Shown: piece after piece, positions 7,852 to 38,265 of the stretch
How positions within the stretch are numbered: the stretch's first letter is position 1
How the letters are laid out: the number at the start of each line of letters is the position of its first letter
Program-made: the position numbers and the translations under genes
The notes under the pieces: model-generated
The model's input: the letters and a program-made list of their open reading frames with translations, nothing else
Databases searched by the model: none
Told to the model about the DNA's origin: nothing
Origin: the human T2T-CHM13v2.0 reference genome, Homo sapiens
Direction: 5' to 3' (one strand)
DNA length: 64,000 bases
Assembly: GCF_009914755.1 (NCBI RefSeq)
Contig: NC_060932.1

Positions 7852-8232
7852 TGTATTAGTCCATTCTCACACTGCTATAAAGAACTGTCATAGACTGGGT
7901 AATTAATAAAGGAAAGAGGTTTTATTGACTCACAGTTCCACATGGCTGGGGAGGCCTCAGGAAACTTACAATCATGGTGGAAGGCAAAGGGAAAGCAGAC
8001 ACCTTTTTCACAGGGCAGCAGGGCAGAATGAGTGCTGAGCAAAGGGGGAAGCCCCTTATAAAACCATAAGATCTCATGAATGAAAACTCACTCACTATCA
8101 GAAGAACAGCACAGGGGAAACCACCCCCATGATCCACTCACCTCCCAGTAGGCCTCTCTCTAGACACATAGGGATTATGAGATTACAATTCAAGATGAGA
8201 TTTGGGTGGGGACACAAAGGCTAACCATATCG
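7852..8232 (-). mobile_element. MaLR solo LTR (MSTA/THE1D-like)
   Basis: tgtattagtccattctcacactgctataaag...gggacacaaaggctaaccatatcg; 5-bp TSD ctagg/ccagg. Confidence 0.92.
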
Positions 8233-23062: not shown

Positions 23063-24799
23063 TACTCCTTTGCATTTTGATATCACTGTTGAAGCCAATG
23101 AAATGTGAGTGGAAGAGATAATAGGCCCTTCTCAGCCAAATGCTGGAAGAGCCGTCACATGGCTGGACCTGGCTTTTTTACATCACACATCCGCTATGTG
23201 GCCAAGATGTAGGCTTTATCTCAGCTAAATTCCTCAATGAGGAAGATATGGGGAGCCAAGCCTCAGAGCTATAGGTATTCTATAGCCATAATGCAAATGA
23301 GTGAGAAATAAACCTTTATTGTGATAAGCACTGAGATTTTGTTGTTGTTATACAGGACAGGAAAGAATAAGCTACTTAATACAAAAACTTCAAGTAACTT
23401 GCCAAGGTTTCCTGGTGGCAAATCTTGGATTCAAAATTAAGCAATCCAGCTTGCAAAGTCACATATTTAACCATTGTGTAATACTGCTTCATAACACATA
23501 GACACATTGAGGCCTAGAGAGATAATCATGTTAGCTTGTCTCAATCATACATAAAACACTTGACCAAATTGGAACCATTACTCTATGCCCTGAACTCTTC
23601 CCATGACATAGGATTTTGACTTAAAAAAATTATTGCTACTGTGCCTGGAAGGTAGTACTCTGTTCTGTTTCTATCACACTAGAAAAGTTTGGAATTCATT
23701 CCTATGCTTCATGGCCTGGCTGCAAAATTATTCTCTGAGGTGGAGCTAGAGCTGGCTGTACCAAACTCTTCAGCATTCAGGCCCTTTCTCTGCGGCCATC
23801 CTCCTTCTTGGGGATTATTTATGAGGGATGAAGGAAGAAGGGGGGCTGTGCACAGTTATTTGTTTTCTGTGAAGCTAGGGGATTGGAAATGTTTTAGAAA
23901 CATAACTGGTTGACACAAAGGATAAAAAGTTAAACATACAGAACCCAACATGTCCTCTCTCGGGACCCCTGTCTGGCTAACAGTGGGATTCACTCCGACA
24001 GTGTACTGCAGACTGAATGAGGAAAAGACAACCCCATTCAAACAAAGGCTGGAATACAATGGTTTTGAAGGCCTCATACTGAGTTCTGTGAGGGCGTTCA
24101 AGAGACAATGCAGTTTGAATGCTAGTTGGGGCCTAATGCAGAGAGAATCTGGCGGTCCGGGGTCACAACGCTTGAGAAATGAATTCAGGGGTTTCTTGCT
24201 GGGTTGCCTGTGTTCATAAGCATCACTAGGAATTGGAGAGGACTTTGCTTTGAGAAATGCCTACCTCCCCCTACCCCCACCAGAAACATGTACACACATT
24301 TCAGAGTAACACAATATAGAAAACACTACTGCAACAATTTGCTTCAAAACACTTTTCCATTTTTACCCTTTTGAGATGCTTACCAAAATAGCAAGATCTT
24401 GATAGTACTAGCTGTTTTATTTTCTATTGCCTTACAGATTGCAGAATCAGCAAAATGGCTCCTAGGGTATCCCATCTCTAACAGTAGAGATTTTGATCAG
24501 ATGATATTTGTGGCCCAGAAATGTTCAGCGGACTTGCCTCAGAGTGTATTAAAGGTAACCAGCAAACTGGAACCAGTGTGAAGAAACCCAGGGCAATGAA
24601 ACTTCTCAGAGGTATCTGTACCTCTGAGAAAGCAAAATCTGCACCTTGCCCTATTGGATAAATAATAATCACATCACATACCATAAATGGAAAGAAAAAC
24701 CATTCTGCATCCTGAGATAAACTCAGAGCAGGAACACCCTACCTGGGACTGATCTCCCAGATAAATGAAGCCCTGTGGTCTAGTTAGTTCCTAACTCTC

Positions 24800-25208
24800 T
24801 GATATGGTTTGATTGTGTCCCCACCCAAATTGCATCCTGAATTGTAGTTCCCATAATCCCCACATGTTATGGGAGGGACCCAGTGGGAGGTAATTTAATC
24901 CTGGGGGCAGTCACCCTTGTGCTGTTTTCCTGATACTGAATTATCATGAGATCTGATGGTTTCATAAGGGGCTTTTTCCTCTTTTGCTTGGCACTATCTC
25001 CTTGCTGTTGCTATGTGAAGAAGAACATGTTTGCTTCCCCTTCTGCCATGACTGTAGGTTTCCTGAGTCCTGGAAACCTACAGTCATGGCAGAAGGGGAG
25101 GCAAACATGTCCCCTTTAATTTGCTGTGAGTCAATTAAACCTTTTTCCCCTATAAATTACCCAGTCTCAGGGTTGTCTTTATTAGCAACGTTAGAATGGA
25201 CTAATACA
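24800..25208 (+). mobile_element. THE1D-like solo LTR with an internal inverted duplication
   Basis: tgatatggtttg...ggactaataca; TSD ctctc/ctgtc. Confidence 0.92.
25025..25110. repeat. 39-bp inverted repeat with an 8-nt loop (hairpin/cruciform)
   Basis: acatgtttgcttccccttctgccatgactgtaggtttcc-tgagtcct-ggaaacctacagtcatggcagaaggggaggcaaacatgt; 38/39 Watson-Crick pairs plus one T:G. Confidence 0.97.
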
Positions 25209-25339
25209 CTGTCTAATGAAAACTCTTTCCCTGACTTTTTCAAACCTTCCTTTTGCAGTCATGTGATGACCCCTGTGTTTAGGATAACTATGTGAAGAAA
25301 CTGATGTTTTTCCACCACCAACAGGCTTACGTGCCTTTG

Positions 25340-25880
25340 TGTGTTAGATCATTTCTCCCAAGAATCAGATATGAAAACAGGATTAGAGATGCCAGGTTTT
25401 TTTTTTTTTGTTTTTTTTTTTTTTTTTTTTTGTGGGGGGATGTCTGGAAAGAAATGTCAGGAAGAATCAAAAAGAGCCCTGAGACCACTATGCAGATTTG
25501 ACACCTGTGAGAACAGGCAGAGAAGGAAGGAATGGCCAGAAATAGCCTCATATTGCAGTGCAGTTCTGTGAAAGTCTTGGCCAGACTGATGCAGAGTCTC
25601 AAGCCAAATCTACCCATTGGAAGAATTCCAGAGACAAAAATTGCTTGTTTCAAGTAATTCCTTATTCTCAGTGATTGGTGAGGAGCAGCTCAGGGAAGGA
25701 TGTCCTGGTGTGAACACCACAGTAGATTAGAAGATGTGGCATTGGCTACCATTCCCTGCAGAAGGTTCTCTGGAACATCTGTATTTCCTGCAGTAGATTC
25801 TCTGGAAAGGAAGTAGGTTCTCTGGAGCTTCTATATTCCCTGAGGTTGGTTCTCTGGAAGGGAGATTGGGCCTCTAGACT
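25340..25880 (-). mobile_element. LTR33-like ERVL LTR, with a T-rich tract at 25397-25431
   Basis: gagaccactatgcagatttgacacctgtga...cagtgcagttctgtgaaagtcttggccagactgatg. Confidence 0.7.
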
Positions 25881-26024
25881 TTGGTAATCTAATACATGTT
25901 TTCTCCTTACAACCTGCCTTAATCTTTGTTTGGGAATACAGTTCTTCAGAAGTCTGGAATTTTGCTGGCATTGCAAAGAAGAGTAATTTAATACTCTTAA
26001 TACTGTAGTCTCTGTGTAATATTT

Positions 26025-33007: not shown

Positions 33008-33131
33008 ATATACATAAAAGATATATATATATATTCCATATATTTTATATATAAATATGCATATTTTTATAATCCATATGTATATATAAAAGATATATAT
33101 CTTTTTTCTTCCCCAAATATATATATATATG
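33008..33131. repeat. AT-rich (TA)n low-complexity tract
   Basis: Interrupted TA dinucleotide runs. Confidence 0.85.
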
Positions 33132-37569: not shown

Positions 37570-38265
37570 AGAAGTGTTCTAATCTGGGGTCAAATTCTAA
37601 GTGGTTTTGAAATGAATTTAGTGGATTGTAGATAAGCATTTTAAAAAATGGGATAGAATAGGATAAAAAAAGAATAATAGGAAATAGATCATATTCATAT
37701 AGTAAATGTTAATAAAAAGGTTTTCATTTTCTCCATATAATTGCGTATTTTTACATATGCATGTGATATAATTTTGGCTGTGTCCCCACCCAAATCTCAT
37801 CTTGAGTTGTAATCCCCGTAATCTTCACCTGTCTTAAGAGGGACCCAGTGGGAGGTAATTGAATCATGGGCACAGTTCCTCCATGCTGTTCTTGTGATAG
37901 TGAGTGAGTTTTCACAAGGTCTGATGGTTTTATAAGCACCTGGCATTTCCCCTGCTGGCACTCATTCTCTCTCCTGCCACCTTTGAAGAGGTGCCTTCTG
38001 CCATAATTGTAAGTTTCCATGATTGTAAGTTTCACATTTCCTCTCCAGCCATGCAGAACTGTGAGTCAATTAAGCCTCTTTTCCTTATAAATCACCCAGT
38101 CTCAGGTATTTCTTCATAGCAGCATGAGAATGGGCTAATATAGTGTGTATATGTACATATATGCATATTTATAGGTATTTATATATAGAGAGAGAATTGA
38201 AATTTAATGTACAATTTCTTACTGTGGGTCATAATAAAATATATATATTTTAAAGCTGTTGATGT
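37570..38265. mobile_element. hAT-Charlie (Charlie4-like) element, split by THE1D
   Basis: tttcttactgtgggtcat...tttaaagctgttg terminal region; AT-rich body. Confidence 0.45.
37764..38142 (+). mobile_element. THE1D solo LTR
   Basis: tgatataattttggctgtgtccccacccaaatctcatcttga...gggctaatata. Confidence 0.92.

What the first reader, a model, noticed from the sequence alone, without database searches (positions are those of the whole stretch)
25025..25110. Locally generated near-perfect 86-nt hairpin inside a THE1D LTR (candidate LTR-born pre-miRNA or cruciform)
Seen: 39-bp arms around an 8-nt loop. The single non-WC pair is T:G, a wobble in plus-strand RNA. The right arm replaces the usual ...ggcctccccagccatg... 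segment. Both arms carry ccatgaCtgtaGgtttcc, whereas other LTRs in this window read ccatgaTtgtaAgtttcc (e.g. ggaaacttacaatcatgg near 7960). Inference: the inversion was copied from this already-diverged locus by fold-back template switching, or the arms are kept homogeneous; it is not a second LTR insertion. Stem length is in the Drosha/Dicer range and it lies in a THE1 LTR, a family with promoter activity. Small RNAs from the right arm would be antisense to many THE1/MST copies, a possible trans-acting TE-silencing RNA (speculative).
Basis: partly seen in the sequence, partly recalled or inferred. Interest (0 to 1): 0.8.

Follow-up and report, generated by a model that had tools for sequence, protein, structure and literature searches.

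The report
Template-switch hairpin in a THE1 LTR
A 39-base piece of an old retrotransposon LTR was copied backwards next to itself, most likely by a DNA-copying slip, giving a near-perfect hairpin of a kind that arises by the thousands in primate genomes and that shows no sign here of being a working microRNA gene.

Summary
Arms 25025-25063 and 25072-25110 are 39 nt long and 38/39 complementary, with an 8-nt loop. The plus-strand RNA folds at -77.1 kcal/mol (z -17). About 1.5e-15 such repeats are expected by chance in 64 kb.

It lies in a solo THE1/MST-type MaLR LTR (24800-25208). Alignment with 13 paralogous LTRs shows that the left arm and loop are ordinary LTR sequence. The right arm is extra: with a 13-nt filler, it replaces 16 nt that paralogs carry. 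No other place in the assembly has this arm-loop-arm junction. Both arms share a 21-mer variant found exactly at only 7 other sites, against 416 sites within one mismatch.

This is the signature of a local template-switch mutation, four-point type 3-2-1-4, a published mechanism. That literature reports 6,054 miRNA-sized hairpins made this way in genic regions of the human lineage, of which 0.9% are annotated miRNAs.

No evidence supports miRNA function. Rfam gives no match at gathering score, and RefSeq lists no MIR gene here. The stem is longer and the loop shorter than Drosha prefers. The single G·U wobble is what one random transition would often give.

Orthologues, raw reads and small-RNA data could not be examined. 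Verdict: real, ordinary, probably neutral.

The parts
24800..25208 (+). Solo THE1/MST-type ERVL-MaLR LTR, 409 bp, with TG...CA ends. The host element of the hairpin.
Evidence: It aligns end to end with dispersed copies: 6 loci, and 13 loci. Identity to 6 paralogs outside the hairpin is 75.8-84.2%. The subfamily was not tested.
24795..24799 (.). Left flank CTCTC. With CTGTC at 25209-25213 it forms a possible 5-bp target-site duplication (4 of 5 bases).
   Evidence: Read. Inference only.
25025..25063 (+). Left arm: ordinary LTR sequence, the template of the inverted copy.
   Evidence: Collinear with paralogs. Other genomic copies match query positions 1-47 only.
25064..25071 (+). Loop TGAGTCCT: ordinary LTR sequence lying between switch points 2 and 1.
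   Evidence: Paralog L005 reads the same 8 nt at this place. The others differ by 1-2 bases.
25072..25110 (+). Right arm: a 39-nt reverse-complement copy of 25025-25063 (the 2->3 fragment). G25100 is the single difference, a derived A>G.
   Evidence: Absent from 13 of 13 paralogs. 38/39 complementary. 9 of the 9 paralogs that align through this stretch carry T at the position of 25035, so the change lies in the right arm.
25111..25123 (+). 13-nt filler CCCCTTTAATTTG of uncertain origin. Together with the right arm it stands where paralogs have 16 nt (L005 reads CCCCAGCCATGCGGAA).
   Evidence: TTTAATT (25115-25121) is the reverse complement of AATTAAA (25133-25139). 39 of 5000 shuffles of the filler do as well within 60 nt downstream, but this is a post hoc test.
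25115..25139 (+). Possible second, small template-switch hairpin. TTTAATT(T)G pairs with CAATTAAA around an 8-nt loop (25124-25131).
   Evidence: It appears in the fold with flanks and in the k-mer test. Suggestive only: PMC5453318 says matches under 12-13 bp often arise by chance.
24960..24969 (+). TATA-like motif of the LTR, reading TTTCATAAGG here.
   Evidence: Most paralogs read TTTTATAAGG or a close variant. In a THE1A LTR the AFAP1-AS1 TSS lies after 193 LTR bases (PMC11007075, passage seen). An LTR-initiated RNA would therefore start about 30 nt upstream of the hairpin. This is an inference from one example.
25134..25139 (+). ATTAAA, a possible LTR polyadenylation signal downstream of the hairpin.
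   Evidence: Read and conserved in paralogs. The role is inferred, not tested.

Best explanation
The hairpin is the footprint of one local template-switch mutation in a solo THE1/MST-type MaLR LTR.

While the plus strand was being copied left to right, synthesis left its template after 25071 (point 1). It resumed on the complementary strand, or on the nascent strand folded back, at 25063 (point 2). It copied 39 nt backwards to 25025 (point 3) and then returned downstream (point 4). This is order 3-2-1-4 of the four-point model, which makes an inverted repeat in a single step.

The return was untidy. 16 nt of LTR sequence were lost or overwritten and 13 nt of filler appeared, perhaps through a second short switch onto AATTAAA 10 nt further on. 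One A>G change (25100) then arose, or came with the event.

The product is most likely neutral. It sits in an intron of the plus-strand lncRNA LOC105379364, in sense orientation. If that RNA is made, it will form a 39-bp RNA stem, but nothing shows that it is cut into small RNAs.

Shown: the anatomy, the uniqueness, the local origin and the absence of a pre-existing quasi-palindrome. Inferred: the switch itself, its direction and its neutrality.
For: - Anatomy: the left arm and loop are collinear with 13 of 13 paralogs, and the right arm is absent from all 13.
- De novo origin: the paralogs' equivalent segments fold at only -5.4 to -14.1 kcal/mol, against -77.2 here.
- Uniqueness: the arm-loop-arm junction pattern matches 1 place in the 3.1-Gb assembly. 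Of the 40 candidates scored out of 341, only this locus matches all 86 nt.
- Local template: the inner 21-mer shared by both arms is exact at 9 places, of which 2 are these arms, out of 416 places within 1 mismatch.
- Youth relative to the LTR: the arms differ by 2.6%, while the LTR differs from 6 paralogs by 15.8-24.2%.
- Published mechanism (PMC5453318, passages seen): type 3-2-1-4 / 1-4-3-2 creates an inverted repeat and makes up 31% of high-confidence human-chimp events.
- Published frequency (PMC10710096, sections 9 and 10 read): 53,666 putative template-switch mutations (TSMs) in genic regions of the human lineage, 31,007 new stems, 6,054 of miRNA size, and 57 (0.9%) annotated as miRNAs. 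TSM lengths in the 16 Dataset S1 rows seen run from 21 to 63 nt, so 39 nt is typical.
- No known RNA family.
Against: - The ancestral state is inferred from paralogs, not orthologues. No primate genome is available here.
- A single switch-and-return does not explain the 13-nt filler that stands in for 16 nt. The second-switch idea rests on a 7-nt AT-rich match. The post hoc test gives 39/5000, and PMC5453318 warns that matches under 12-13 bp are often chance.
- Neutrality is a prior, not a result. No expression, small-RNA, conservation or population data could be consulted.
- The hairpin lies in the sense intron of a lncRNA and downstream of where a THE1 LTR would start transcription. That is the context in which TSM hairpins do sometimes become miRNAs (81 of 99 intragenic TSM-miRNA loci are sense-strand).
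Confidence: 0.85

Rival explanations
1. The hairpin is a working, unannotated young small-RNA gene: a pre-miRNA or a short hairpin endo-siRNA precursor. It would be transcribed within the LOC105379364 intron or from the LTR's own promoter. Its right-arm products would be antisense to THE1/MST transcripts.
For: - The stem is of miRNA size and very stable.
- It is intronic and in sense orientation to a plus-strand lncRNA (hub table).
- It lies about 30 nt downstream of the expected THE1 TSS (an inference from PMC11007075).
- The right arm's first 21 nt match, within 1 mismatch, 416 places in the genome.
- TSM hairpins near ERVL-MaLR elements have become miRBase entries (14 Dataset S1 rows mention MaLR).
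- ERVL-MaLR-derived miRNAs are listed in PMC10136691.
- A CNNC-like CCCC follows the stem.
Against: - The base rate is 0.9% (57 of 6,054).
- There is no MIR gene in the hub's RefSeq table, no Rfam match at gathering score, and only generic hairpin matches on both strands below threshold.
- The 39-bp stem and 8-nt loop compare poorly with the preferred 35 bp and 10 nt or more.
- The stem is perfect, with no mismatched lower-stem motif, no basal UG at the junction and no apical UGU/GUG (read; the motif definitions are recalled, not from a call).
- The TATA-like motif is altered in this copy.
- The 21-mer appears in no paper's main text.
- Only 1 paper names the host lncRNA, and only in passing.
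Confidence: 0.04
2. The product is the same, but it was made during repair of a double-strand break rather than at a replication fork. The left 3' end snapped back on itself and was extended by 39 nt. The right end snapped back on AATTAAA and was extended by a few bases. The ends were then joined with loss of about 12-16 nt. This is polymerase-theta-type end joining with templated insertions.
For: - A deletion combined with two reverse-complement templated stretches, one drawn from each flank, is what this pathway leaves. That description is from recall, not from any call here.
- Both putative snap-backs have 8-nt loops.
- An error-prone polymerase could have produced the single mismatch at birth.
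Against: - The right-flank templated stretch is only 7-8 nt and may be chance.
- 39 nt is long for such insertions (recalled).
- Sequence alone cannot tell the two routes apart.
- The replication model already covers the main feature.
Confidence: 0.2
3. The right arm is a fragment of a different THE1 copy that inserted in inverted orientation (a nested insertion or an ectopic patch).
For: THE1-like sequence is abundant: 416 near-matches of the 21-mer. The best foreign copies are 95% identical to the right arm, against 97% for the local left arm. Identity alone therefore separates them by only one base.
Against: - The copy begins 8 nt after the left arm ends and mirrors it base for base over exactly the same 39 nt.
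- It shares the rare C+G 21-mer, which is exact at only 7 other sites.
- It has no LTR ends and no target-site duplication of its own.
- A 39-nt piece is not a retrotransposition product.
Confidence: 0.01
4. The palindrome is an assembly or consensus artefact, or a private change of the sequenced cell line.
For: Nothing positive was found. Raw reads and other human assemblies are not available here, so this remains untested.
Against: - The one mismatch between the arms and the untidy 3' junction look like real history rather than a fold-back read artefact, which would give exact symmetry.
- PMC5453318 reports that every candidate event its authors inspected in resequencing data was reliable assembly.
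Confidence: 0.02
5. The arms are old and are kept alike by selection on the stem, or by gene conversion between the arms.
For: Only one difference in 39 pairs, and that one keeps pairing in plus-strand RNA as G.U.
Against: - Any transition in a paired position gives G.U on one strand and A.C on the other. A wobble on the plus strand is therefore expected in roughly a third of single random changes (reasoning, not a call).
- 39-nt arms are far below the lengths at which mammalian gene conversion works efficiently (established knowledge, recalled).
- A young event explains the likeness without further assumptions.
Confidence: 0.03

Closest known systems
Short-range template-switch mutations, four-point model, type 3-2-1-4 / 1-4-3-2 (Loytynoja and Goldman 2017, PMC5453318; passages seen)
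   Same: A stretch is copied in reverse complement from sequence a few bases away, creating an inverted repeat and a hairpin in one step with no pre-existing palindrome. The event is flanked by an indel or by dissimilar sequence. [quoted passage not shown]
   Different: The ancestral state here is inferred from paralogous LTR copies, not from a sister genome. The locus is inside a repeat, a class those scans masked or excluded. One switch-and-return does not account for the 13-nt filler.
TSM-generated hairpins and de novo primate miRNAs (Monttinen, Frilander and Loytynoja 2023, PMC10710096; outline, sections 9-10 and passages read; Dataset S1 searched by term)
   Same: A perfect stem of miRNA size born in one event, intronic and sense to a host lncRNA, next to an LTR that could supply a promoter. 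The 39-nt length is within the 21-63 nt seen in the Dataset S1 rows.
   Different: There is no annotated miRNA and no evidence of expression or processing here. It would belong to the about 99% of such hairpins that are not miRNA loci. Its arms are themselves repeat sequence, so any product would match hundreds of THE1 copies.
miRNAs derived from ERVL-MaLR elements (table in PMC10136691, passages seen: e.g. miR-1246, miR-1257, miR-1267, miR-1587, miR-3927, miR-4481)
   Same: Hairpins lying in MaLR LTR sequence.
   Different: Those are annotated loci with reads. No sequence relation to this hairpin was found: Rfam gave no homologous mir family. Whether any of them comes from this part of the LTR was not tested.
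Short inverted repeats and cruciform-prone non-B DNA (search listing only: PMC5737083, PMC12562434)
   Same: Two arms with a short spacer that can form hairpins on single strands. The DNA fold is -47.6 kcal/mol.
   Different: At 39 nt the arms are much longer than most catalogued short inverted repeats. Extrusion or instability at this site was not and cannot be tested here.

Membership tests
Short-range template-switch mutation (four-point model) | The new segment is a reverse-complement copy of nearby sequence, with a 2->3 fragment of at least 14 bp and mismatches only. | tested here: met
   39 nt, 38/39, no indel, template 8 nt away. The 14-bp threshold is from PMC5453318.
Short-range template-switch mutation (four-point model) | The state before the event lacks the segment (comparison with a sister or ancestral sequence). 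| tested here: inconclusive
   13 of 13 paralogous LTR copies lack it, and their segments do not fold. Orthologues, which are the proper comparison, are not available with these tools.
Short-range template-switch mutation (four-point model) | [quoted passage not shown] | tested here: met
   Points are 3=25025, 2=25063, 1=25071 and 4=25111 or later, giving order 3-2-1-4 (types).
Short-range template-switch mutation (four-point model) | One switch-and-return explains the whole cluster of differences. | tested here: not met
   A 13-nt filler in place of 16 nt remains unexplained. A second short switch is possible but weakly supported (39 of 5000 shuffles, post hoc). The four-point model's authors do not model successive switches.
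Canonical animal miRNA gene | A hairpin with a stem near 35 bp and an unstructured apical loop of 10 nt or more. | tested here: not met
   The stem is 39 bp and the loop 8 nt. The preference is as stated in PMC10710096. This is a preference, not an absolute bar.
Canonical animal miRNA gene | Listed as a miRNA (RefSeq/miRBase gene, or an Rfam mir family match at gathering score). | tested here: not met
   The hub's RefSeq table for the window has two lncRNAs and no MIR gene. Rfam gives 0 matches at gathering score in the window. The best sub-threshold match is 53.4 bits against a gathering score of 96, to a plant family, and is near-equal on both strands. miRBase, MirGeneDB and miRCarta themselves could not be queried.
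Canonical animal miRNA gene | Reads of 20-26 nt from both arms, with 2-nt 3' overhangs and uniform 5' ends. | not testable with these tools
   No small-RNA or CLIP data are at hand. The criteria are recalled from the MirGeneDB rules.
Canonical animal miRNA gene | Processing motifs: basal UG, apical UGU/GUG, flanking CNNC and a mismatched GHG. | tested here: not met
   Read by eye. There is no UG at the basal junction, no UGU/GUG in or at the loop, and no mismatch in the lower stem. CCCC at 25111-25114 fits CNNC only if cleavage is measured from the loop. The motif definitions are recalled, not from a call.
THE1/MST-type ERVL-MaLR solo LTR | Full-length similarity to many dispersed LTR copies, TG...CA ends and a 5-bp target-site duplication. 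| tested here: met
   End-to-end alignment with dispersed copies. TG at 24800 and CA at 25207-25208. The flanks CTCTC/CTGTC agree at 4 of 5 bases, which is weak.
THE1/MST-type ERVL-MaLR solo LTR | Subfamily THE1D. | not tested
No repeat library (Dfam/Repbase) is at hand.

The most novel reading that the evidence does not exclude
The hairpin is an unannotated, ape-specific small-RNA locus born in one template-switch event inside the transcribed (R-like) part of a THE1 LTR. It would be transcribed with the host lncRNA or from the LTR itself. Its 39-bp stem would be diced into RNAs whose right-arm products are antisense to hundreds of THE1/MST copies. That would be a host-made silencer of a retroelement family, created from one of that family's own copies.
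Probability: 0.03. Interest if true: 0.55.

Novelty: new member of a known kind. Interest (0 to 1): 0.15.

Why it matters
As it stands it matters little. It is one more example of a mutation class, short-range template switching, that is already known to create thousands of hairpins in primate genomes.

It is a clean textbook case inside a repeat. Published scans masked or excluded repeats (PMC10710096 section 9). It shows that paralogous repeat copies can stand in for an outgroup when defining such events.

If the small-RNA reading were true, it would be an example of a retroelement copy turned into a hairpin whose products match its own family. That would bear on how genomes acquire TE-directed small RNAs.

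Tried and rejected
- Rfam in E-value mode over 24000-26000 gave 18 matches. All were below gathering score, and all those on the hairpin were generic stem matches. The top one, a plant family, scored nearly the same on both strands. Rejected as homology.
- Rfam at gathering score over the whole window gave 0 matches.
It found 1 place, while its backwards control found 3 per strand. The pattern is therefore not enriched, and the junction is unique to this locus.
- A full-text search for a 21-nt stretch of the right arm found 0 papers. Supplements and RNA spelling were not searched.
- In Dataset S1 of PMC10710096, the term 'chr8' found nothing only because loci are written as '8...'. That look-up therefore does not show whether a chr8 locus is listed. 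Since the file holds miRBase loci and the hub table shows no MIR gene in the window, I did not read it through. The large Dataset S2 could not be read.
- Origin of the 13-nt filler: besides the inverted AATTAAA match, 8-mers match about 1.4 kb downstream and about 0.6 kb upstream. These look like chance. The CCCC may simply be retained LTR sequence. No firm source was found.
- My first thought was that the LTR's TATAAAT at 25151-25157 placed the hairpin upstream of the LTR start site. I dropped it after PMC11007075 placed a THE1A start site after 193 LTR bases, which is upstream of the hairpin's position.
- A look for comparable close inverted repeats in the 13 paralog loci (about 23 kb) found only two weak ones, 19-20 nt at 79-80%. 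No base rate can be drawn from so little sequence.
- Dating from one mismatch gives point estimates of 10.7-25.6 Myr for rates of 1.2e-9 to 0.5e-9. The 95% interval is 0.3-143 Myr. It is too wide to use, and the mismatch may have been born with the event.

Full report
**Observation.** The repeat finder gives arms 25025-25063 and 25072-25110, 39 nt each and 97% complementary, with 8 nt between them. The single non-Watson-Crick pair is T25035 opposite G25100.

The plus strand folds as RNA into one uninterrupted 39-bp stem at -77.1 kcal/mol. Shuffles average -23.9 (z -17.0), and 0 of 200 do as well. The minus strand gives -72.6 kcal/mol with an A.C mismatch. As single-stranded DNA the value is -47.6 kcal/mol.

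About 1.5e-15 repeats of this quality are expected by chance in 64 kb. Of the 10 close inverted repeats in the whole window, the runner-up is a 25-nt, 88% AT-rich one.

**Setting.** The hairpin lies in a 409-bp LTR (24800-25208) with TG...CA ends. The LTR aligns end to end with dispersed copies in the same assembly. Outside the hairpin it is 75.8-84.2% identical to six of them. The flanks CTCTC and CTGTC agree at 4 of 5 bases, which fits a solo LTR with a decayed target-site duplication.

That this is a THE1/MST-type MaLR LTR agrees with my recall of the family's ends. The subfamily label THE1D was not tested. According to the hub's table, the site is in an intron of the plus-strand lncRNA LOC105379364. 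The LTR and the hairpin's G.U-tolerant strand are both in sense to it.

**Anatomy against paralogs.** I aligned the LTR with two sets of paralogs. Six were found by BLAST with the 86 nt. Seven more were chosen because they carry the arms' exact 21-mer.
- In 13 of 13, the left arm and the loop are ordinary, collinear LTR sequence. Copy L005 has the identical 8-nt loop.
- In 13 of 13, the right arm is absent.
- Where the paralogs have 16 nt (L005 reads CCCCAGCCATGCGGAA), the window has the 39-nt inverted copy followed by 13 nt of filler, CCCCTTTAATTTG (25111-25123). It then rejoins the family sequence at CTGTGAG.
- The paralogs' equivalent segments fold at only -5.4 to -14.1 kcal/mol. There was therefore no quasi-palindrome to perfect, and the stem was made de novo.
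- All 9 paralogs that align through the stretch have T at the position of 25035. The one difference between the arms is therefore a derived A>G in the right arm.

**Uniqueness and local origin.** A search of the 3.1-Gb assembly with the 86 nt returned 341 candidates, of which 40 were scored. Only this locus matches the whole query. The others match positions 1-47 on one strand, and the same bases match positions 48-86 on the other strand, so they have one arm only.

The arm-loop-arm junction pattern occurs at 1 place. Its backwards control found 3 per strand.

The inner 21 nt common to both arms occur exactly at 9 places, 2 of which are these arms. Within one mismatch they occur at 416 places, and the control found 0. 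The C+G combination is rare, and both arms have it. Together with the exact mirror register, this makes a foreign THE1 fragment very unlikely.

**Mechanism of origin.** The pattern is that of a short-range template switch. In the four-point model of Loytynoja and Goldman (PMC5453318; passages seen), replication leaves the template at point 1. It copies a 2->3 fragment in reverse complement from the other strand or from the nascent strand, and returns at point 4. Here the points fall at 3=25025, 2=25063, 1=25071 and 4=25111 or later. This is type 3-2-1-4 (mirror 1-4-3-2), which 'creates an inverted repeat' and made up 31% of the paper's high-confidence human-chimp events. [quoted passage not shown]

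One switch-and-return does not explain the filler.
- Part of the filler, TTTAATT (25115-25121), is the reverse complement of AATTAAA (25133-25139). With G25123:C25132 it forms a small second hairpin, again with an 8-nt loop.
- Only 39 of 5000 shuffles of the filler match as well within 60 nt downstream.
- However, the test is post hoc, and the authors warn that matches under 12-13 bp are often chance.
- A compound event with two switches is therefore possible, not shown.
- Break repair with snap-back synthesis from both ends would leave the same product (recalled knowledge). I give it about 0.2 as the route.

**Age.** The arms differ by 1 in 39 (2.6%), while the LTR differs from its paralogs by 16-24%. 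The event is therefore much younger than the LTR. Point estimates of 11-26 Myr come with a 95% interval of 0.3-143 Myr. The mismatch could also have been made during the event, so the age is open until orthologues are compared.

**Function.** Monttinen, Frilander and Loytynoja (PMC10710096) describe this route to new miRNAs. I read the outline, sections 9 and 10 and some passages, and searched Dataset S1 by term.
- They count 53,666 putative template-switch mutations in genic regions on the human lineage.
- 31,007 of these make a new RNA stem, and 6,054 are of miRNA size.
- Only 57 (0.9%) are annotated in miRBase.
- Their polymorphism analysis excluded events overlapping repeats.

So the kind is known and common, and the prior for function is about 1%. 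Nothing here raises it much.
- Rfam gives no match at gathering score in the window. Around the hairpin there are only sub-threshold generic stem matches. The best is 53.4 bits against a gathering score of 96, to a plant family, with 50.6 bits on the opposite strand.
- The hub's RefSeq table has no MIR gene.
- The stem is 4 bp longer and the loop 2 nt shorter than the preference quoted in that paper (35 bp; 10 nt or more).
- Of the four processing motifs as I recall them, only a CNNC-like CCCC fits, and only in one cleavage register.
- The G.U wobble carries no weight. Any single transition in a stem gives G.U on one strand and A.C on the other.

Points in favour of the small-RNA reading:
- The position is intronic and in sense orientation.
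- It lies about 30 nt downstream of where a THE1 LTR starts transcription. In a THE1A LTR the AFAP1-AS1 start lies after 193 LTR bases (PMC11007075, passage), and the hairpin begins at LTR base 226. The TATA-like motif is altered in this copy.
- The right arm is antisense to hundreds of THE1 copies.

I put the small-RNA reading at 3-4%.

**Comparison with what is known.** The locus works like, and most likely is, a template-switch hairpin of the published type. It fails one formal criterion, since a single event does not explain every difference. Its ancestral state rests on paralogs.

It is not a member of any annotated miRNA family. ERVL-MaLR-derived miRNAs exist (list in PMC10136691), and 14 Dataset S1 rows of TSM-associated miRNAs have a MaLR element within 1 kb. 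No sequence relation to this hairpin was found.

As DNA it is also a long 'short inverted repeat' of the cruciform-prone kind (search listing only). Nothing could be tested on that.

**Searches bearing on 'not in print'.**
- The 21-mer was found in 0 papers' main text.
- The host lncRNA's name appears in 1 paper, a Mendelian randomisation study (search listing only, not read).
- Supplements of most papers, miRBase-type databases, primate genomes, raw reads and expression data could not be consulted. The claims of neutrality and of being unannotated are limited accordingly.

**Verdict.** The structure is real and highly non-random, and it was correctly located. It is an ordinary, probably neutral product of a known mutation mechanism: a new member of a known kind, and of low interest.

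Noticed in passing
window 38003-38034: Another MaLR-type LTR (about 37835-38199) carries a direct tandem duplication of a 16-nt unit (ATAATTGTAAGTTTCC / ATGATTGTAAGTTTCA). It falls in the same LTR region that forms the hairpin's arm at 25046-25063 and looks like replication slippage.
   Followed up: partly
window 33008-33096: An AT-rich stretch holds several overlapping imperfect palindromes and a 25-nt, 88% inverted repeat with a 9-nt spacer. It is probably low-complexity (TA)n-like sequence.
   Followed up: no
window 24891-24901: The LTR reads TAATTTAATCC where the six paralogs end in AATCA. As I recall the DUX4 site of MaLR LTRs (a double-homeobox motif ending AATCA), this copy's site would be damaged. 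The motif is recalled, not from a call.
   Followed up: no
window 25398-25432: A long T run of about 35 nt with one G interruption lies 190 nt downstream of the LTR. It may be the tail of a minus-strand retroposed element.
   Followed up: no
L011, L014, L015 (alignment A2, columns 108-123): Three of the seven copies that share the arms' exact 21-mer carry an extra segment of about 16 nt after CCATG, and they differ upstream of the arm. They belong to a different LTR subfamily. The 21-mer is therefore shared across subfamilies.
   Followed up: no
L002 1611-1692: One paralog locus has a 19-nt, 79% inverted repeat with a 44-nt spacer straddling the 3' end of its LTR. It is weak and may be chance.
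   Followed up: no
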